From positions 32,001 through 96,000 of the IMG/VR virus record IMGVR_UViG_3300031414_000007: 64,000 bases of DNA; one strand, 5' to 3'. The stretch is from a virus. Its lineage: Duplodnaviria; Caudoviricetes. This document shows, in pieces, positions 43,823 to 51,337 of the stretch; the stretch's first letter is position 1; each line of letters begins with the position of its first letter. The position numbers and the translations under genes are program-made. The notes under the pieces were generated by a model. That model saw nothing but the letters and a program-made list of their open reading frames with translations. It did no database searches and was not told the DNA's origin.

Positions 43823-46726
43823 TTAGTGCAGAATCTCGTCAGGTTCCCAGCACAGGATAGGTCTGCGCCATACTTGGAATACACCGATTGGCGCTGAACG
43901 TGCGTCATCAATGAATGGGTCGAAAGTACGACCGCCACTGTTGCCACTTTTCATCAACGTCCGCAAGTCCTCATACCAAGAAGCACGACCACCTGAGTCA
44001 GCCTCGAACAGTCCTTCCCAGACCATATCGAAAGCTCCATTCCATGCGTTGAAGTGGTGTGAGGAGTATGCACCGTCGCCAACAGTACACAGCACCATGT
44101 ATTGATAATCTTTGACGCAAGGAATCATATAGTTGTTTCCACGCGGCACAGTGGTGCTGTTATTGTTGAATATACATTCCCAACCGGTACGGTCAGCAGA
44201 ACCTGTAGTGAGATACAGAGGTCTACGAATAATCATCATGATACCGTTTTCACCGCCGTGATCTTTAGACGTCTCACAGTACGCATTGCAACGCAGCGAG
44301 CGGTCAACGGTGAACGTGGTAGAGTTCGAGAAGTCGCGGGTGTAGTAGTTCGATCCCCACTTCGGCAGATACTCTGCTGGTGGAACAAAGAAGTGTCGCT
44401 CCGCCAATTCAATGCCGCCGTAGCGGTCATACGCAAATACAATGTATTCGTGACCTGCTTCAATCTGAATGTTGTGACCCTGAGATCCAGGACCTGTCCA
44501 CTTCCAAACTACTTGCCAGTCATTCGAATCACGCGCAGGGATGCCTGTAATTAGATTGTACTTGCGCTCATAGATATGCCACACTTTACCTTCTTCCGTC
44601 GTTTGAATGTACAACGAGTTCGGGTCATTGATGTTACCGTTTTCAGTACCACAGTAAATCTTGTGTGACGCACCAGACGAGTTATAGATTGTGCCTGAGC
44701 CAATACCGCCAAACATGTCCCAGTTCATCATCAGGTGAGAGGTACACATTTCGTTCTGGCCACTACCATCGGAGGTTGTGATCAGATACTCATTCAAGTC
44801 TTTGAACGGGTACTTAACGTAGCGGTTGTTCGCACGATTGACGACATGTACCCAATCGTGAGACTGAACCAGAGGCTTCGGCGCGCATGGGTTTTCGACA
44901 GAGATAACGAACGTCTTTGTCTCATACATCGGCAGCTTCTTGAATCGGTTGTCACGGAACGTTGACGTGTATTTGGCGCCAAAGAATTTGCTCATGTCAG
45001 GCACGTCAAGAGTCTTACCGTAGCGAATGCGCATACCACGTCCGTTCTCAAGTGCAGCTTGGTTAATCTGCGTCTGAGGAGTGATAGCATTCGTGCCTGT
45101 CACATACGGCCAACCATTACCGTCGAAGTCAAACCCTACATCGAACGTAGCATTAGGGTCATTATCCTTTTCGCCCTTGAGCATCTCAACTATGGCGTTA
45201 CCTTCTCCGAGTCCAGGACTGCCGAAGCAGCAATAAGCAGCACGATAGTAGAAGTTCGGACCGTCAAAGATACGGCGTGAGGCACCGATGCGATACATAG
45301 CAGCTTCAAGGCCACTAGCTTTGCGGTTGTAAGACGCTTCATCGAACATCGTGATCAGCACCCAATAGGCACTGCTAATCGAGTTCAAGTATGCAGCCAT
45401 CTGACCGGCATTAACCAGACCACTTCCCTGGCCTTCACCACCATCACCATGCACATCAAACTGGCGACGCTCAACAACCTGCAATGACACTTTATCAATC
45501 TTGTAGACTGAATAGCTTCGCGCTTCTGCGTAGCGAGTACCGTTGATGATCGTATAGCCTGGGTTGGTCTGAGGCGTATAGTTGGAGCCTGAGCCGGGCA
45601 CACCGTAGCCTACAGCGTGGAAGAAGATACGACCACGATTGACGAGCGACTGATCGGTGTTGTTATACCACGAGATACTATGCGTCTTATTTGCAAGGCC
45701 AGCAGCCCAGTTATCAGGCTTGGACGGGAACGTGTACGCATCGAAGTTGGCTTCGTATCGCGTCCCTGGGTCTACGCAGCATACGTCACTAAAGAACGGA
45801 GGCGTATATGCCTGAGTGTCATCGTTAATATCGACAGTACCACACCAGAACGGAATCCATGTGCCTGGCTGCCCCGACATTGAAGTCTGACGAGCACCAC
45901 CTGTATCGGTGAAGCGATAGCCCTGAGCACTACGGAAACCCTGCGTAAGATGAAGCTGACCTACTTGGTTCCACGCAATATGATCACCGTACTGAGAGAC
46001 TTGACGGTTACGCGCGGTCTTGGTGGCAACAATGCTTGTGGTCTTCTGCGTACTAATGCCAATCTGAGAGAAGATGGCGTTAAAGTTAGCAGCACCTTCA
46101 CCAGGACCTTTTTGAAGCACAACAAACGAGATACCCTCTTTGATGGCATTAGCAATCGCGTTGCACATCTGCGCAGGCATCGTCTGAGAAGTCGCCGATA
46201 AACAGAAAATGGTGAGAGCAAACTGTTTAAAGTATTGCTTATCACCATTGTAGCCGAATGCACCGGCCTGTATTTCTGCGAGTGTGTGACTGTAGACGTT
46301 GTAACGCTCACGCTCAAGATAGCGAGCGAATTGGCCCCAGTTGTTATAGGCTTTCGTCTCAGTCACAGAAGCACCGTCGGACATGAGTAGAATATCGTAC
46401 CCATGAGTGAAGTTGCAGTTCATATCCATCATCAGGCGGATATGGCGCAGCGCACCAACAGCTTGGTTGAACTGAGTGTTGTTGAAGTTACCAATCCAGC
46501 CGTAACCCTCAACGATGTTAAACGAATATGGCGTAACGAAATCGCCGTTCATGAATGCACTACCGAAGCCACAGATGTAGCCTGATGCGTGTCCATCAAC
46601 TGCGATACTCGTTAGCGTTGAGAAATCTGGGCTCATGCCTGCGTCAGCGGAGCCAGGGTTATTCGAGGCTGACCCCGAATAACCGCTGGTGATTCCACGC
46701 AGATATAGACAGCTTTGTTTCAGCAT
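43823..46726 (-). CDS. large tail-fibre/adhesin with ILEI (FAM3/PANDER-type lectin) domain
   Basis: FDVHG...MAAYLNSI...VLITMFDEAS...IGA...YRAAYCCFG ILEI pattern. Confidence 0.78.
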   Translation of the reverse strand: MLKQSCLYLRGITSGYSGSASNNPGSADAGMSPDFSTLTSIAVDGHASGYICGFGSAFMNGDFVTPYSFNIVEGYGWIGNFNNTQFNQAVGALRHIRLMMDMNCNFTHGYDILLMSDGASVTETKAYNNWGQFARYLERERYNVYSHTLAEIQAGAFGYNGDKQYFKQFALTIFCLSATSQTMPAQMCNAIANAIKEGISFVVLQKGPGEGAANFNAIFSQIGISTQKTTSIVATKTARNRQVSQYGDHIAWNQVGQLHLTQGFRSAQGYRFTDTGGARQTSMSGQPGTWIPFWCGTVDINDDTQAYTPPFFSDVCCVDPGTRYEANFDAYTFPSKPDNWAAGLANKTHSISWYNNTDQSLVNRGRIFFHAVGYGVPGSGSNYTPQTNPGYTIINGTRYAEARSYSVYKIDKVSLQVVERRQFDVHGDGGEGQGSGLVNAGQMAAYLNSISSAYWVLITMFDEASYNRKASGLEAAMYRIGASRRIFDGPNFYYRAAYCCFGSPGLGEGNAIVEMLKGEKDNDPNATFDVGFDFDGNGWPYVTGTNAITPQTQINQAALENGRGMRIRYGKTLDVPDMSKFFGAKYTSTFRDNRFKKLPMYETKTFVISVENPCAPKPLVQSHDWVHVVNRANNRYVKYPFKDLNEYLITTSDGSGQNEMCTSHLMMNWDMFGGIGSGTIYNSSGASHKIYCGTENGNINDPNSLYIQTTEEGKVWHIYERKYNLITGIPARDSNDWQVVWKWTGPGSQGHNIQIEAGHEYIVFAYDRYGGIELAERHFFVPPAEYLPKWGSNYYTRDFSNSTTFTVDRSLRCNAYCETSKDHGGENGIMMIIRRPLYLTTGSADRTGWECIFNNNSTTVPRGNNYMIPCVKDYQYMVLCTVGDGAYSSHHFNAWNGAFDMVWEGLFEADSGGRASWYEDLRTLMKSGNSGGRTFDPFIDDARSAPIGVFQVWRRPILCWEPDEILH

Positions 46727-46741
46727 ATCTTCTGCATCCTG

Positions 46742-48751
46742 TTATTGATATACGACCTCAACGTTGATACGAAGGTCGATGTACTGCTCGCCGCTTTCTG
46801 GCGTGTACACAGTCACGATGCCAATCCAACCGTTAGCCGCTGTTGGTACTTGCACAAGCTCAGTCTGATATACGGAACCAGTCCAAGTGTACGAAGTCTT
46901 AGCGCTTACGATTGTACGATCACCAATGCTAGTGCCCCACGGCTCATACTCAAGCGTACCCCACAAGTCGCCGTGTTTCGTTTCGTTCGTCTTCTGGAAG
47001 TAACCACCAGTTGCTGCAACACGAGGCGTAACGTCACGGCCGTAGCCAGAAGTAACGATACGAATACCATCGTCGGTGCAGATACGGAAGTTGAAGTTAA
47101 CGGTGTGGTCAACGTTACCGTAGTAGCGCAGAACACCTTTGCTCAACGTCCAACTGCTGGAAACATCATCAACGGACAGACAGCGATATGGAACAAGATA
47201 GTCAACCACGTCAAACTTAGGCGGTTGAATCGGGCAGTATACAAAGTAAGACCAATCACATCCGATAGGCGCTGTCGCTCTGACTGTTATGTTAGAGCGT
47301 AACGTGTGCTCTGGGTACTTCCAGAACTCAAGAGTACCTGTCTTACCTGCCGCTACATATTCAGTATCAAGCAGGTTCATGTCTTGGTCGAACACCTCAA
47401 ACTTGGTGTCAAAGGAGTTCGCTACGCAGACAACAAGGACAGCGCGTTGATCAGTTTGTGTTCCTAACGCAAAATTATCTTCTGTCGTTGGGTGGCCGGC
47501 AGAGTAGACGCTGTAACTTTCACAAGGGTGCATGTATTCACGCGCACCACGTTCACCAGGACAATACAGGCTGTAGAAGCAACTCGCAAGTGACGCAGCG
47601 TTACCGAAGTCTTTGCTGACTACGCGCACCATAATGTCACAGGCAACTCCCTGTGGGTCAAAGTAGAAGTACAGATAACCTTCACCCGTCTTCGCGTCAA
47701 GCGTTGTTGCGATACGACGCCCTGCCTGATACACCTCGATGAAGTCAAACGTTTCCCACGAGGTGTAGTCGAGATACATCCAGCCTGCTGTCCAGCCAAT
47801 GAAGTGATAGTATTCAAAGGCGTTAGCGTTCTGAATACGTTCAGCGATAGGCCAAACAGTAGCGTGACACGGAGCAGGGAAGATAGGGCTGCCGATGTAG
47901 TCAGGATGAATAACGTCAGGGAAGTTGATAACGTCATATGATGCCTGACTGTCGAGCGCTAACCCACCACGATCAGACGGTGCTGCAAGACGAGGCGGAT
48001 AGACTTCGAGACTCCAGCCATACCCCTGAGTTGTACGCACACGCACCATGATACGCATATCAGCAGCATCAGGGTCAAACTGAAATTTGATACGAGAGCG
48101 TCCAATCAGTTTACCACACGTTGAAGCAACACGCTCCCCCATGTGATACACGTCAACGCTTGCTCCAGCAGGCGCATACGAGGCAATCATCAGCTCAACG
48201 TAGCCCTCAATAGCAGGCATCGCGTATACTGTCTCAGTAATCGTTGCGCCACGTCCATGAACAGACGCATACGGCACGTTAGGGTTAGCATAGGTGCCTA
48301 GCCCTGCGCGAGAAGCAACACCAGAAGGGTCGTATGATTCGATGGTCTTGATGCCGGGTCGGTTAATAGATCGACCAGTAGGAGGAGCAAAAGAGTTGAC
48401 GAGACCGAAGCCAGTGCGACCAGCATCAGGTAAGTCGAACCCTGCAGGATAGCCTTTGAGTATATCGTATTTCTCACGACCTCCACTCCCTATCCCGTTA
48501 CCAGAACCCTTGGTTGTTGATGTAGGACCGCCTCCACACGCGCCCGTGTCAAGATTAGAGCACGGGTCATCGTATGTAGGGTCGAACGAGTCATCAATAA
48601 GATGCCAACGCTGACCCCATTGGTTACGCACACTAAACTTCTCTGGAGTTAAAGGCGTCCAGTCTCCCTCTCGTGTGCGTATGAACATGGGCGTGTCCAC
48701 ACAGTCATGCCAACCGTTATTCGCAGCGTTACGAACGCGAAAACGAGCCAT
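46742..48751 (-). CDS. virion protein with three tandem beta-sandwich repeats
   Basis: Repeats G-V-L...EVY-G-R-A-T...F-DP...IMVRV...W/FY-CP. Confidence 0.78.
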   Translation of the reverse strand: MARFRVRNAANNGWHDCVDTPMFIRTREGDWTPLTPEKFSVRNQWGQRWHLIDDSFDPTYDDPCSNLDTGACGGGPTSTTKGSGNGIGSGGREKYDILKGYPAGFDLPDAGRTGFGLVNSFAPPTGRSINRPGIKTIESYDPSGVASRAGLGTYANPNVPYASVHGRGATITETVYAMPAIEGYVELMIASYAPAGASVDVYHMGERVASTCGKLIGRSRIKFQFDPDAADMRIMVRVRTTQGYGWSLEVYPPRLAAPSDRGGLALDSQASYDVINFPDVIHPDYIGSPIFPAPCHATVWPIAERIQNANAFEYYHFIGWTAGWMYLDYTSWETFDFIEVYQAGRRIATTLDAKTGEGYLYFYFDPQGVACDIMVRVVSKDFGNAASLASCFYSLYCPGERGAREYMHPCESYSVYSAGHPTTEDNFALGTQTDQRAVLVVCVANSFDTKFEVFDQDMNLLDTEYVAAGKTGTLEFWKYPEHTLRSNITVRATAPIGCDWSYFVYCPIQPPKFDVVDYLVPYRCLSVDDVSSSWTLSKGVLRYYGNVDHTVNFNFRICTDDGIRIVTSGYGRDVTPRVAATGGYFQKTNETKHGDLWGTLEYEPWGTSIGDRTIVSAKTSYTWTGSVYQTELVQVPTAANGWIGIVTVYTPESGEQYIDLRINVEVVYQ

Positions 48752-48760
48752 GATTTCTCC

Positions 48761-49252
48761 TTATGGACGTACCCAAATTGCGCCGGGTTCGATCTCTTGA
48801 TCCATTGACGGGTCGGTGTCTTGAATGAAGATTTGCAGTACACCAGGATTACCCGGAGCACCAGTAGGACCCGTAGGGCCTGTAGGACCAGCAGGGCCTC
48901 TGTTACCTACCCAGCCTTGCTTGCCTTGCAGACCATCATTACCACGAGGGCCAGGACAGCCGTCAGTACCACGACGACCATCGTTACCCATGAGACCGTC
49001 AATACCGTCACGACCAGATGGACCTACGCCACCAGCAGGACCGTAACCGATACTATGAATCGTAGGCAGCCCAGAAATTTGCAGCTTGCCAATATTGGGG
49101 ATGTTGATTGCTAACAGACCGGTAAGCTGATCAAAAGAACCGGTAAGCTGGCTGTCGTTTTCTGACGTATCAACGTTAATCCCACCTTGAGTCGCAACAA
49201 CAGGACCAGATGCGTTGGCCTTGATAAGCGATATATCAACCTTCTCTACCAT
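48761..49252 (-). CDS. collagen-like fibre protein
   Basis: 22 G-X-Y triplets; C-terminal PGAIWV motif. Confidence 0.88.
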   Translation of the reverse strand: MVEKVDISLIKANASGPVVATQGGINVDTSENDSQLTGSFDQLTGLLAINIPNIGKLQISGLPTIHSIGYGPAGGVGPSGRDGIDGLMGNDGRRGTDGCPGPRGNDGLQGKQGWVGNRGPAGPTGPTGPTGAPGNPGVLQIFIQDTDPSMDQEIEPGAIWVRP

Positions 49253-49262
49253 AACAACTCCC

Positions 49263-49895
49263 TTATGGCCAAGTTATATTCTGATCTTTGGTCGGGTCTA
49301 CCCAGATGGTGCCAGCAGCAACGTTCCCTGGGTTCGTAGCACTTACGATGATAGACAGACGACCGGCAGGACCCGCAGGGCCAGTTGGTCCGGTAGGGCC
49401 TGTAGCACCTGTTGCGCCAGTAGGACCCGTACCGCCACGAGGGCCAGTAGGGCCTGTAGGACCCATTGGGCCAGTACGACCGTCAGGGCCAGTAGGGCCA
49501 ACAGGACCCGGTAGACCATCACGACCATCTGGTCCGGGAAGACCCTGCTCACCGTCAGGTCCGATATTACCGTCACAGCCTTGTTCGCCCGGACTACCAT
49601 CACGTCCATCACGACCATCTTTACCATCAGCGCCCGTTTCACCTCTGCCACCCTGTCGTCCTTCAGGTATATCAGCAGCGGTCGGGAACCCACCTACTTT
49701 AATCGACTGCCCGTTAGCGAACTTGAGAGTAAGAATACCAGAAGTCGCATCAAACGAGGAGTCAGCAGTTACCTCTGAGGGCACATCGGCATCGTTTGGG
49801 TCTATCGAAAGAACTCCAGACTGAGCGCGAATTGCAGCAGGCGTAGACGAAGAACCAGCCTGAATGAGACCGGTCTTAACTTTAATCAGACTCAT
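49263..49895 (-). CDS. collagen-like fibre protein
   Basis: 33 G-X-Y triplets; C-terminal AGTIWV motif. Confidence 0.9.
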
Positions 49896-51337
49896 TACTT
49901 TTTCTCCGCTTTCGCAACAATATCCGTGTTGTGTGCGAGTACATCACCAACGAAGTAGCAGTCAAATGGATCGACGTCAATATCAACAGTCTGCACCAAA
50001 TCGTCTACACGTCTGAACTCGTAAACAGACACTGGGCCTTTACGACCAAGCACTGTATGTCCTGGCTCTACTTCTCGTGCAGGAACGTAACGCCACACGG
50101 ATTGATCATATATCAACACTGGATGCTCATGCGTGAACTTCTGTCCGTTGATAATGAAGTAGTGGTCTTCCTGTCCGTACTTGAGCGCAGTCACGGTAGC
50201 GTTTACCAGATTGCCTTTCAAGCTCTTAGAAGACCAAGCACGGAACTCTTTTGGCTGATTAGAGAAGCTACGCAGGCTATCACCTACACGCAAGTTCTCG
50301 ACAGCTTTAGGTCCAGTAATCGTTTCTACCTCAGAACCAAACACGATACAGCCAGATGTTGAAGTGTTGACAGGGTTACGTGCAACAACGGTCAACGCAG
50401 AACTCACGGTAACAGTTGGGCGCGACGTTTGACCCATATCAGTTACTACGCAGCGGATAGTGCCTTTGATTGTACGATCAGCACCAAGTCCGAGACGCAG
50501 ATAGAAGTTAACAATACACGTTGAGGTAGTAGTCGCATCGAGCGTTACGCCCTCTGTGGTTGTGATAGACCATTGATACTTATATGGACCCACACCTCCA
50601 CGCGCATTGACAGGAAGATATGCGAGCGAGGTAAATACATCAGACCCTTGCACTGCACGTTGACCTACCATGTACAGGCTCGATACTGACGCAGCAAGAG
50701 GTGTTATCGTAGGCAGAGGCGGGGCAGGTGTAACGTTAGCTGTTGGATAGAGCCACACGAATACACGCCCGTCTGTAGGCTGCGCGTTAGACAGAACAGC
50801 AGTAGTGATAGGCGCAGGGCCCGTTGGGCCAGTAGCACCAGCTATACAGCTTGCACCAGTAGCACCACGAGGACCGAGAACGCCCGGAGGCCCATCAGGA
50901 CCGTCGGGACCAGTAGGGCCTGTAGGACCCTCTCGTCCAGTATCACCCGTCTGACCATCAGGACCATCACGTCCCGGTTCACCTACAGGGCCTGTCTTGC
51001 CTCTATTGCCAACAGGGCCAGGACAACCCGGTCTGCCTGTTTCTCCATCACGACCATCACGCCCGTCTCGGCCAGGAGCACCGGGAGCGCCTCGACGCCC
51101 CGGTTTCCCTTCGCCAAACATTGCTACAGTCGGAAGACCAGGAACATTAACTACTTGCCCGTTCTTCTTGATGAAAACTAACACACCTGTCTTGCTGTTA
51201 AACCTTACGCTGGCAATCTGAGTATCTGTCGCCAAGTCACTCGACTCGAACCCGACACTACCATCAACACCAACCAGCGATTTACCTTCATCGTTAGCCG
51301 TTGTTTCGATTTGCGAAAGTTTTAACTGTGTTGTCAT
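49895..51337 (-). CDS. collagen-like fibre with Ig/PKD-like domain and C-terminal Hint domain
   Basis: 29+3 G-X-Y triplets; [11 protein letters not shown] Ig-like motif; CIVFG...FTHEHP...AHN-T. Confidence 0.88.
49928..50350 (-). other. Hint / mini-intein-like autoprocessing domain (141 aa)
   Basis: C1, block B T-x-x-H, block F D, terminal HN with +1 Thr; no endonuclease domain. Confidence 0.82.

What the first reader, a model, noticed from the sequence alone, without database searches (positions are those of the whole stretch)
49895..50350. Splicing-competent Hint domain at the extreme C-terminus of a collagen fibre
Seen: ...TSTSG|CIVFG...FTHEHP...[12 protein letters not shown]...AHN|[10 protein letters not shown]. 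All catalytic positions are present, there is no endonuclease, and the C-extein is only 10 aa. Known: Hint domains perform splicing, cleavage, or Hedgehog-style transfer of the N-fragment to an outside nucleophile. Inference: a domesticated self-removing folding chaperone, or a device that covalently ligates the fibre tip to another virion protein or small molecule.
Basis: partly seen in the sequence, partly recalled or inferred. Interest (0 to 1): 0.7.

Follow-up and report, generated by a model that had tools for sequence, protein, structure and literature searches.

The report
Intein-like self-processing cap on phage fibre
A collagen-like baseplate fibre of an Erwinia jumbo phage ends in a real, fixed (non-mobile) intein-like domain that almost certainly cuts itself out of the fibre tip, one example of a large, unstudied family of such fibre end-caps that carry a tiny lysine-bearing tail.

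Summary
Residues 330-470 of the 480-aa ORF at 49895..51337 (-) form a Hint domain with Cys1, T-x-x-H, terminal His-Asn and Thr+1, followed by a 10-residue tail. By sequence and predicted fold it is closest to A-type bacterial intein-like (BIL) domains (PDB 2LWY), then to the lysine-ligating BIL2 of Tetrahymena.

It is not a mobile intein:
- All 54 phage records and 22 protein clusters of this fibre keep it.
- It diverges in step with the rest of the protein (r = 0.90).
- The only Hint-free orthologs (Dickeya JA phages plus 7 metagenomic proteins) lack the tail too and end ...NPK.

About 110 of the 150 nearest relatives in 1.84 billion proteins share the architecture "Gly-run|Cys...His-Asn|1-19 residues". 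Of these tails, 107 hold lysine, against 42.5 expected from a gene-end control.

One caution is new here. In this clade the conserved tail codons GCG-GAG-AAA are also the Shine-Dalgarno site of the next gene.

The most likely function is self-excision through a thioester, with the tail re-joined. This is inferred and not shown: no open proteomic data were found.

Earlier reports of this scan described the same family on other genomes.

The parts
49895..51337 (-). Whole gene: 480-aa collagen-like fibre protein with a C-terminal Hint cap (P0001); stop codon at 49895..49897
   Evidence: ORF list and translation. End-to-end match to phrog_38766 'virion structural protein', E 2.3e-250.
51110..51337 (-). 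N-terminal domain (aa 1-76), shared with the two downstream collagen paralogs; presumed virion-attachment end
   Evidence: The 210-aa and 163-aa neighbours match phrog_38766 positions ~14-199. Alignment A1.
50813..51109 (-). Collagen-like region (aa 77-175): 29 G-X-Y triplets, a one-triplet break (CIA), then 4 more; Cys105 in triplet 10 is invariant
   Evidence: Pfam Collagen E 1.4e-14; triplet count; invariant columns.
50375..50812 (-). Post-collagen segment and all-beta Ig-like domain (aa 176-321); last structural domain of the fibre, ending ...VARNP
   Evidence: AF2 model: strands only, pLDDT about 90 from model residue 40 to 145. Weak SprB-repeat hit. Hint-free orthologs end right after this domain.
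50351..50374 (-). Variable linker (aa 322-329, PVNTSTSG) ending in invariant Gly329 at position -1
   Evidence: Least conserved segment, mean pairwise identity 0.51; Gly329 invariant. Low pLDDT at model residues 150-153. Replaced by GGGGG in most of the wider family.
49928..50350 (-). Hint / BIL-type domain (aa 330-470): Cys330 (50348..50350), Thr402 (50132..50134), His405 (50123..50125), His469 (49931..49933), Asn470 (49928..49930)
   Evidence: 2LWY by sequence, E 3.3e-6, and by fold, E 1.1e-8, TM 0.81. All five residues invariant in 22 homologs.
49898..49927 (-). 10-residue tail [10 protein letters not shown] (aa 471-480): Thr471 at +1 (49925..49927), invariant Asp472, Glu478 and Lys479 (49901..49903)
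   Evidence: Alignment A1. Most conserved segment, 0.78. pLDDT below 50 in the model.
49904..49907 (-). GGAG Shine-Dalgarno of the next gene, lying inside tail codons Ala477-Glu478; that gene's ATG (49893..49895) overlaps the stop as TAATG
   Evidence: GCG GAG AA[AG] is identical at synonymous sites in 9 phages, while neighbouring codons vary.
49263..49895 (-). Paralogous collagen-like protein, 210 aa, no Hint; part of the conserved cassette
   Evidence: Pfam Collagen E 4.8e-15. The same gene follows the Hint fibre in Y3, fHe-Yen9-02, JA11 and Afa-NA1.
48761..49252 (-). Paralogous collagen-like protein, 163 aa, no Hint; part of the conserved cassette
   Evidence: Pfam Collagen E 2.1e-9; the same synteny calls as above.

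Best explanation
The last 151 residues are a fixed, non-mobile A-type-BIL-like Hint domain plus a short tail. Together they act as a self-processing end-cap on a baseplate-associated collagen-like fibre.

Proposed mechanism. Every chemical step below is inferred from conserved residues and from the known chemistry of Hint domains; none was shown here.
1. Thr402/His405 activate the Gly329-Cys330 peptide bond, and an N-to-S acyl shift puts the whole fibre (aa 1-329) on a Cys330 thioester.
2. His469-assisted cyclisation of Asn470 cuts the Hint-tail bond.
3. The acyl group passes to the tail. This could run through the Thr471 side chain, as in a class-1 intein. In relatives without a +1 nucleophile it could run through an amine of the freed tail, as reported for A-type BILs.
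4. The 141-residue Hint domain leaves, and the mature fibre ends ...[19 protein letters not shown].

My odds: some form of thioester-driven self-removal of the Hint domain, about 0.75. Given self-removal, the tail is re-joined (splicing or ligation) rather than lost, about 0.55.
For: The fold and closest relatives are autoprocessing BIL domains.

Cys330, Thr402, His405, His469 and Asn470 are invariant in 22 homologs down to 46% overall identity. They are also kept in the 35%-identical Hint of Afa-NA1.

The invariant His-Asn is needed only for cleavage at the C-terminal junction. Its retention, here and in 150 of 152 family members examined, argues that both junctions react.

The domain is not mobile:
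- It is present in all 54 phage records and all 22 protein clusters.
- A search with the mid domain found no Hint-free protein of similar length among close relatives.
- Hint and fibre identities co-vary, r = 0.90.
- The fibre sits at the same place in the baseplate module in distant metagenomic jumbo phages, where the upstream 779-aa protein is 30-34% identical over its full length.

Evidence that the tail matters:
- 107 of 110 short tails in the family hold Lys, against 42.5 +/- 4.9 expected from 304 control gene ends. All 5 one-residue tails are Lys.
- All 8 Hint-free orthologs end in Lys straight after the same domain.

Published precedent: A-type BILs cleave at either end and can splice without a +1 nucleophile (review PMC5874633).
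Against: - No protein-level data were found. The Y3 virion-proteomics paper is not held in the library and no open mass-spectrometry data turned up.
- In this clade much of the tail's conservation can be explained at the DNA level. GCG-GAG-AAA carries the next gene's Shine-Dalgarno site and shows no synonymous change in Ala477 or Glu478 across 9 phages.
- The +1 residue varies (Thr, Ala, Val, Ser, Met), so canonical splicing is not a conserved requirement.
- JA-type phages make the same fibre without any Hint, so the cap is dispensable for building the fibre itself.
- The tail is unplaced in the AF2 model (pLDDT below 50).
Confidence: 0.6

Rival explanations
1. Cleave and discard. The Hint domain acts only as a self-removing C-terminal pro-domain, a functional analogue of the peptidase-S74 intramolecular chaperone of tailspikes or of the procollagen C-propeptide. 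The thioester is hydrolysed, Hint plus tail are lost, and the mature fibre ends at Gly329.
For: - The +1 nucleophile is unconserved.
- Tails can be a single residue.
- Hint-free orthologs show the fibre needs nothing beyond ...NP.
- The tail's local conservation is confounded by the overlapping Shine-Dalgarno site.
- Self-cleavage is a reported activity of BIL domains (PMC5874633).
Against: - N-terminal cleavage alone needs neither His469-Asn470 nor a tail, yet His-Asn is invariant.
- Lys in the tail is far above the gene-end baseline family-wide, z = 13.
- Nothing here shows that the Hint domain helps folding or trimerisation.
Confidence: 0.22
2. Lysine-directed ligation, as in Tetrahymena BUBL BIL2. 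The Cys330 thioester is resolved by a lysine epsilon-amine and forms an isopeptide at the fibre tip. The lysine could be Lys479/476/480 of the protein's own tail, of a neighbouring chain's tail, or of another virion or host-surface protein.
For: - The second-best structural match is BIL2 of BUBL1 (E 8.5e-7). Its depositors state that it forms a K(epsilon-NH2)-C-terminus isopeptide and conjugates its N-extein to other proteins (PMC8616854 section 2.4).
- Lys is present in 107 of 110 tails. It is the last or next-to-last residue in 63 of them.
- Lys is the +1 residue in 22 of 36 internal Hints of the same family.
- Lys479 is invariant here, and one synonymous AAA-to-AAG change keeps it.
Against: - There is no chemical evidence.
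- The lysine's distance from Asn470 varies from 1 to 10 residues, which is unusual for a fixed catalytic geometry.
- Part of the Lys excess near stop codons comes from A-rich translation-start regions of the next gene.
- No candidate acceptor protein was identified.
Confidence: 0.13
3. An ordinary selfish mini-intein that happened to insert near the 3' end of the fibre gene.
For: Full set of splicing residues including Thr+1; no endonuclease, as in mini-inteins.
Against: - There is no sporadic distribution and no intein-less allele that retains the C-extein.
- The insertion point is a variable linker after the last domain, not a conserved functional site.
- The closest relatives are BIL domains, not inteins.
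- The same end-cap architecture recurs on about 110 unrelated N-terminal regions.
Confidence: 0.02
4. The Hint domain is retained on the virion as the distal knob of the fibre (for example a binding domain), and its catalytic residues are relics or serve another role.
For: RefSeq and PHROG call the protein a virion structural protein. No data show removal.
Against: Five catalytic residues are invariant over deep divergence while surface positions vary. No non-catalytic role for the C1/TxxH/HN set came up in the papers read or the structures matched here.
Confidence: 0.03

Closest known systems
A-type bacterial intein-like (BIL) domains, e.g. Clostridium thermocellum BIL (PDB 2LWY); Amitai et al. 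2003 and Dassa et al. 2004, as cited in PMC5874633
   Same: - Best sequence match (E 3.3e-6, aligned Cys1 to His-Asn) and best fold match (TM 0.81, 26% identity).
- About 140 residues, no endonuclease, N-terminal Cys, T-x-x-H, C-terminal His-Asn.
- The C'-flanking nucleophile is often absent in relatives.
- Sits in a variable region of a surface or extracellular-type protein rather than in a conserved enzyme site.
   Different: - Here it is the very end of a phage virion fibre, with only 10 residues behind it.
- It belongs to a family whose tails are 1-19 residues long and nearly always contain Lys, usually after a Gly-run linker.
- I found no paper describing this terminal-cap architecture.
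BIL2 of the Tetrahymena thermophila BUBL1 polyubiquitin-like locus (PDB 6Y75 / 6TMM; Chiarini et al. 2021, as described in PMC8616854)
   Same: Second-best structural neighbour (E 8.5e-7, TM 0.73). The N-extein ends in Gly. It is reported to resolve its thioester on a lysine epsilon-amine, which would fit the Lys-bearing tails.
   Different: Only 18% identity. It is eukaryotic and flanked by ubiquitin-like domains. It is reported to be zinc-activated. No ubiquitin-like domain is present here.
Pfam PF07591 PT-HINT (pretoxin Hint of polymorphic toxins)
   Same: Best Pfam Hint model, matched over 132 of 137 positions. The precomputed Pfam annotation lists it for several homologs.
   Different: The score of 25.0 bits is below the gathering score of 27.7. 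PT-HINT releases a C-terminal toxin domain, and here nothing but a 10-residue tail follows.
Hedgehog Hog autoprocessing domain (PDB 1AT0)
   Same: Hint fold (Foldseek E 6.9e-5); Gly|Cys junction; the N-terminal product leaves through a thioester.
   Different: There is no sterol-recognition region, since only 10 residues follow. The invariant His-Asn end is characteristic of inteins and BILs, not of Hog.
Peptidase S74 intramolecular chaperone auto-processing domain of tailspikes and tail fibres (K1F endosialidase, T5 pb1); from my own knowledge
   Same: Works alike in outline: a C-terminal domain of a phage fibre that removes itself after assembly.
   Different: Unrelated fold and chemistry (Ser-Lys dyad proteolysis). 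There is no Pfam hit to it here. A chaperone role for the Hint cap is not shown.

Membership tests
Hint superfamily | Hint fold (horseshoe beta structure) with motif blocks A, B, F and G | tested here: met
   AF2 model matches more than 45 solved Hint structures at Foldseek E below 1e-3, best TM 0.81. Motifs C-I-V-F-G, T-H-E-H-P, D-I-D-V-x-P-x-D-x-Y-F and L-[AV]-H-N are present.
A-type BIL domain | Closest sequence similarity is to BIL domains rather than to inteins or Hog | tested here: met
   phmmer against PDB: 2LWY at E 3.3e-6, versus the best intein at 5e-3. Foldseek ranks 2LWY first, then BIL2.
A-type BIL domain | N-terminal Cys and C-terminal His-Asn; C'-flanking nucleophile frequently absent | tested here: met
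   Cys330, His469 and Asn470 are invariant. The +1 residue is Thr here, Ala/Val/Ser/Met in relatives, and Ser/Thr/Cys in only 13 of 110 family tails.
A-type BIL domain | Located in non-conserved regions of variable proteins; not sporadic like inteins | tested here: met
   It follows the least conserved segment of the protein (linker identity 0.51) and is fixed in all relatives.
A-type BIL domain | Autocleavage or splicing activity | not testable with these tools
   Needs expression or mass spectrometry. No open data were found.
Pfam PT-HINT (PF07591) | Score at or above the curated gathering threshold | tested here: not met
   25.0 bits against a cut-off of 27.7.
Pfam PT-HINT (PF07591) | A C-terminal toxin module that is released | tested here: not met
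   Only 10 residues follow Asn470.
Intein (mobile protein-splicing element) | Catalytic set: Cys/Ser1, T-x-x-H, His-Asn, and a Cys/Ser/Thr at +1 | tested here: met
   Cys330, Thr402, His405, His469, Asn470 and Thr471.
Intein (mobile protein-splicing element) | Interrupts a conserved site of a host protein; sporadic distribution with precise intein-less alleles | tested here: not met
   It is terminal and preceded by a variable linker. All 54 phage records and 22 clusters carry it. The one Hint-free clade lacks the C-extein too.
Hedgehog Hog domain | Hint module followed by a sterol/adduct-recognition region | tested here: not met
   10-residue tail only.
Peptidase S74 intramolecular chaperone | Sequence or fold of the S74 domain | tested here: not met
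   No Pfam hit at E 0.01 or below. The fold is Hint.

The most novel reading that the evidence does not exclude
The Gly-run | Hint | Lys-tail end-cap is a dedicated isopeptide-forming device. The fibre's C-terminal carboxyl is moved from the Cys thioester onto a lysine epsilon-amine, either of the tail or of a partner protein on the virion or host surface. This would give phage fibres an ATP-free, ubiquitin-like covalent tip chemistry that has not been described.
Probability: 0.15. Interest if true: 0.85.

Novelty: new variant of a known kind. Interest (0 to 1): 0.55.

Why it matters
Hint and BIL domains are well known, but their biological purpose outside inteins and Hedgehog is largely open.

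This example gives a tractable case. The phages are culturable (Y3, Alexandra, AD1 and the pEa_SNUABM series). The domain is fixed at a defined virion position. Nature has also supplied a Hint-free control, the JA phages.

If the cap only cuts itself off, it is a second, chemically different route to the self-removing C-terminal domains already known for tailspikes. If it ligates through lysine, it would be a new covalent chemistry for virion assembly or adhesion and a ready-made protein-engineering tool.

The family holds at least 148 clusters at E 1e-10 or better, and 1522 at E 1e-3 or better, among 1.84 billion representative proteins. I found no paper on it.

Tried and rejected
- **Complex prediction.** Three copies of residues 176-480 gave no verdict (score 0.00). 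It says nothing either way about trimerisation of the tip.
- **Literature.** The searches covered vB_EamM_Y3 with mass spectrometry, vB_DsoM_AD1, Alexandravirus, fHe-Yen9-02, 'Hint domain' with tail fiber, and 'bacterial intein-like' with phage and tail. They found no proteomic or biochemical data on this protein. The Y3 paper (Res Microbiol 2018) is not held. The phage papers that mention Hint concern terminase or RNR inteins, not fibres.
- **Ordinary intein.** Rejected on distribution and position (see the rival explanations).
- **Tail conservation as evidence of function.** I first read the high conservation of TDIVAKAEK (0.78) as strong evidence that the tail is functional. That weight is withdrawn for Ala477-Glu478, because the codons are the next gene's GGAG site.
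- **Lys excess as a gene-end artefact.** I tested whether the family-wide lysine excess comes from A-rich translation-start regions. It does not. Control gene ends have Lys in the last 7 residues in 39% of cases (45% when a gene follows within 12 nt), against 97% of the Hint tails.
- **Other Hint domains in this phage.** The own 210-kb record holds only this one.
- **Geometry of the tail.** The tail's position relative to the active site could not be examined.
- **Heterotrimer of the three collagen paralogs.** Considered but not claimed. Their uninterrupted triplet runs differ (29, 34 and 23), which fits three separate homotrimers better.
Full report
**1. What is there**

The finding lies in the ORF at window 49895..51337 on the minus strand, which encodes 480 aa (P0001). 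Its parts, from the N-terminus:
- An N-terminal domain, aa 1-76.
- A collagen-like region, aa 77-175: 29 unbroken G-X-Y triplets, one break, then 4 more (Pfam Collagen E 1.4e-14).
- A post-collagen segment and an all-beta Ig-like domain, aa 176-321 (AF2 pLDDT about 90).
- A variable linker, PVNTSTSG.

Every quoted string is present:
- Cys330 follows Gly329. Its codon is 50348..50350, so the finding's end coordinate is exactly the first base of Cys1.
- Thr402-x-x-His405 lies in FTHEHP.
- Block F reads [12 protein letters not shown].
- His469-Asn470 is followed by Thr471 and the tail [10 protein letters not shown], then the stop at 49895..49897.

**2. It is a real Hint domain of the BIL type**

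- Pfam gives PT-HINT (E 2.4e-5, 25.0 bits, below the 27.7-bit cut-off) and Hint_2 (E 5.5e-4).
- A sequence search of all PDB chains finds the Clostridium thermocellum bacterial intein-like domain 2LWY as best hit (E 3.3e-6), aligned from Cys1 to the terminal His-Asn.
- I predicted residues 176-480 with an alignment of 22 homologs (mean pLDDT 83).
- Foldseek against the PDB gives 2LWY first (E 1.1e-8, TM 0.81, 26% identity). Next comes BIL2 of the Tetrahymena BUBL1 locus (E 8.5e-7), then many mini-inteins and the Hedgehog Hog domain.
- The domain is 141 residues, so there is no room for a homing endonuclease.

**3. Where the window comes from and what the protein is**

The window is from an Erwinia amylovora jumbo phage. 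The closest record is pEa_SNUABM_30, at 94% nucleotide identity over this region. Relatives are Alexandra, AD1, Y3, Yoloswag, pEa_SNUABM_5 and Yersinia fHe-Yen9-02. The phage's own record is 210 kb and holds no other Hint domain of this kind.

The gene sits in the baseplate module. The gene order, all on the minus strand, is:
- A baseplate wedge protein (487 aa, phrog_219).
- A 1511-aa tail protein.
- A 779-aa protein.
- This fibre.
- Two shorter collagen-like paralogs (210 and 163 aa).
- A 669-aa protein.
- A 967-aa ILEI-domain protein.

The same order, beginning PAAR - gp25 - wedge - ~1500 aa - ~790 aa - Hint-capped collagen fibre, is found on two metagenomic contigs, one from a TARA ocean sample. 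There the protein upstream of the fibre is 34% and 30% identical to the window's 779-aa protein over its full length.

Y3 and AD1 are described as 'hairy Myoviridae', and the proteins forming the hairs are unknown (PMC6143709).

The bare presence of the domain is therefore on record; its role is not.

**4. Not a mobile intein**

- tblastn with the Hint region finds it in 54 phage records. All enterobacterial jumbo-phage relatives of the fibre have it.
- A search of 5.8 billion proteins gives 22 clusters of 476-490 aa, all with the domain.
- A search with the Ig-like mid domain alone found no shorter, Hint-free protein among them.
- In the alignment, Cys330, Thr402, His405, His469 and Asn470 are invariant, and so is Gly329 at position -1.
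- Pairwise identity in the Hint domain tracks that of the mid domain (r = 0.90) and of the N-terminal domain (r = 0.90). Mean identity is the same (0.66 against 0.67). The domain has therefore been inherited with the fibre.
- The junction lies after the least conserved segment of the protein (linker 0.51), not in a conserved functional site.

**5. Hint-free orthologs exist, and how they end**

tblastn with the mid domain also hits the Dickeya JA phages (Salmondvirus, 43% identity), which gave no Hint hit.

JA11 gp096 lies at the same syntenic position and is followed by the same 210-aa and 164-aa collagen paralogs. It is 324 aa long and ends ...TARNPK-stop. That is where P0001 continues ...[12 protein letters not shown]|Cys.

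Seven further metagenomic proteins of this type (63-99% identical to JA11 in that region) all end A[RK]NPK.

Three things follow:
- The fibre can be built without the cap.
- The Hint-free form lacks Hint and tail together, so it is not a precise intein-less allele.
- Much more distant syntenic fibres carry the cap: the Alcaligenes phage Afa-NA1 and the two metagenomic jumbo phages. Loss in the JA lineage is therefore the simpler reading. That is an inference from parsimony, not a tested tree.

The invariant terminal Lys of the Hint-free clade is suggestive, because the Hint-bearing forms would also end near a Lys if the tail is re-joined. It is, however, a single evolutionary event.

**6. The wider family**

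A profile of the Hint region was searched against 1.84 billion representative proteins. It gave 1522 hits at E 1e-3 or better and 148 at E 1e-10 or better.

Among the best 150, outside the query's own clade, 110 have the Hint domain at the very end, with 1-19 residues (median 7) after His-Asn. Their total lengths run from about 120 to 1600 aa. Most have a run of glycines directly before Cys1 (GGGGG|C), and about fifteen carry long collagen runs.

The +1 residue is Ser, Thr or Cys in only 13 of the 110 (Ala 23, Lys 18, Val 13, and so on). Within the query's own wider clade it is Thr, Ala, Val, Ser or Met. The Thr471 that makes this copy look 'splicing-competent' is therefore not a conserved requirement.

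**7. The lysine in the tail, with a control**

107 of the 110 tails contain Lys, and it is the last or next-to-last residue in 63.

The stop codon of these genes is usually within a few bases of the next start codon, so I checked whether this is a by-product of A-rich translation-start regions. In the contigs examined, tail codons do overlap the next gene's ribosome-binding region.

As a control I used 304 other gene ends, called by a simple greedy ORF picker in the phage's own 210-kb record and in eight related loci. Most of these come from the phage's own record. Results:
- Lys occurs in the last 7 residues of 39% of control genes (45% when another gene follows within 12 nt).
- Lys occurs in the last two residues of 17% (23% when tightly followed).
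- Matched for tail length, the control predicts 42.5 +/- 4.9 tails with Lys, against 107 observed (z = 13).
- All five one-residue tails are Lys, against an 8% control frequency.
- Among 36 family members in which the Hint is internal, the +1 residue is Lys in 22.

The lysine is a real feature of the family.

**8. A caution specific to this window**

The tail is the most conserved segment of the protein (mean pairwise identity 0.78).

In nine phages spanning 54-99% protein identity, the codons for Ala477-Glu478-Lys479 read GCG GAG AA[AG]. There is no synonymous change in the first two, while the neighbouring Ala475, His469, Asn470, Asp472 and Ile473 codons vary freely.

GCGGAG contains the GGAG Shine-Dalgarno site, 8-9 nt before the ATG of the next gene. 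That ATG overlaps or abuts the stop (TAATG).

The invariance of Ala-Glu in this clade therefore cannot be counted as evidence for a protein-level role. Lys479 (one AAA-to-AAG change keeps it), Asp472 and Thr471 lie outside the core site.

**9. How it most likely works**

Shown:
- A complete, conserved, vertically inherited BIL-type Hint domain caps the fibre.
- Both the N-junction set (Cys1, T-x-x-H) and the C-junction set (His-Asn) are invariant.

Inferred from established Hint chemistry (review PMC5874633):
- An N-to-S acyl shift puts the fibre on a Cys330 thioester.
- Asn470 cyclisation cuts the tail off the Hint domain.

His-Asn is useless for N-terminal cleavage alone. Its invariance therefore argues that both junctions react, which means either double cleavage or splicing.

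With Thr471, class-1 splicing is chemically possible here. In relatives without a +1 nucleophile, the alternative route reported for A-type BILs would be needed.

I put 0.6 on self-excision with the tail most likely re-joined, 0.22 on cleave-and-discard, 0.13 on lysine-directed ligation, and 0.05 on a plain intein or a retained knob together.

The lysine route has a published precedent in the second-closest structure. [quoted passage not shown]

**10. Comparison, novelty and limits**

It works like, and by the tests possible here belongs with, A-type BIL domains.
- It fails the Pfam PT-HINT cut-off and has no toxin module.
- It lacks the Hedgehog sterol-recognition region.
- It fails the distribution and position criteria of inteins.
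- It resembles the peptidase-S74 intramolecular chaperone of tailspikes only in outline.

The terminal-cap architecture with a Gly run and a Lys tail was not found in any paper searched. I rate it a new variant of a known kind.

Earlier reports of this scan described the same family on other genomes, including another Erwinia jumbo phage. I had reached the same reading independently before consulting them.

This report adds:
- The Hint-free ortholog clade and its ...NPK end.
- The gene-end control for lysine.
- The Shine-Dalgarno confound.
- The co-divergence measure.
- The baseplate synteny.

Limits:
- No protein-level data were found.
- Only the 150 best family hits were examined.
- The control is dominated by one genome.
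- The tail is unplaced in the model.
- The one complex prediction gave no verdict.

Noticed in passing
window 48761..51337 (-): Three adjacent paralogous collagen-like genes (480, 210 and 163 aa) share the N-terminal domain, and each has a single Cys in the 10th G-X-Y triplet. Their uninterrupted runs are 29, 34 and 23 triplets. The cassette lengths are almost identical in very distant phages (Afa-NA1 476/209/164; JA11 324/210/164). Whether they form three homotrimers or a mixed fibre is open.
   Followed up: partly
window 49893..49907 (-): The fibre gene's stop overlaps the start of the next gene (TAATG). That gene's GGAG ribosome-binding site lies inside the fibre's last codons, which fits translational coupling of the collagen paralogs.
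   Followed up: yes
window 46742..48751 (-): A 669-aa protein with no Pfam family is part of the same conserved cassette. It is 55% identical to a 408-aa protein of Alcaligenes phage Afa-NA1 that is annotated 'putative large intein domain protein', although nothing Hint-like was found in it here. A second BLAST segment suggests an internal duplication (aa ~165-315 resemble aa ~307-479).
   Followed up: partly
window 43823..46726 (-): A 967-aa protein with an ILEI (interleukin-like EMT inducer / FAM3-type) domain at aa 405-502 (Pfam E 1.9e-6, just above the cut-off). It is conserved downstream of the fibre cassette in Y3 and JA11.
   Followed up: no
L002 (Alcaligenes phage Afa-NA1, PV550095.1) and Salmonella phage Sen-NF (PV359490.1): Two records of 78 kb and 108 kb, from unrelated hosts, give identical scores for the Hint fibre (34.7% identity, same E-value). 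They carry the jumbo-phage fibre cassette. This could be shared or mis-assigned sequence, or a cassette that moves between very different phages.
   Followed up: no
P0030, P0035, P0045, P0053, P0168 and others: Family members with internal or tandem Hint domains often read ...HN-K-G-C..., with Lys at +1 (22 of 36). Several end in a hydrophobic, transmembrane-like tail (for example ...IIGACIIGSIVWGVNKF...). This is a different architecture from the fibre caps.
   Followed up: no
L003 (Ruminococcus phage NatCom_3870), 4251..5804: A 517-aa hypothetical protein has a related Hint domain in mid-protein (27% identity), with about 117 residues after it. The record holds a second match as well.
   Followed up: no
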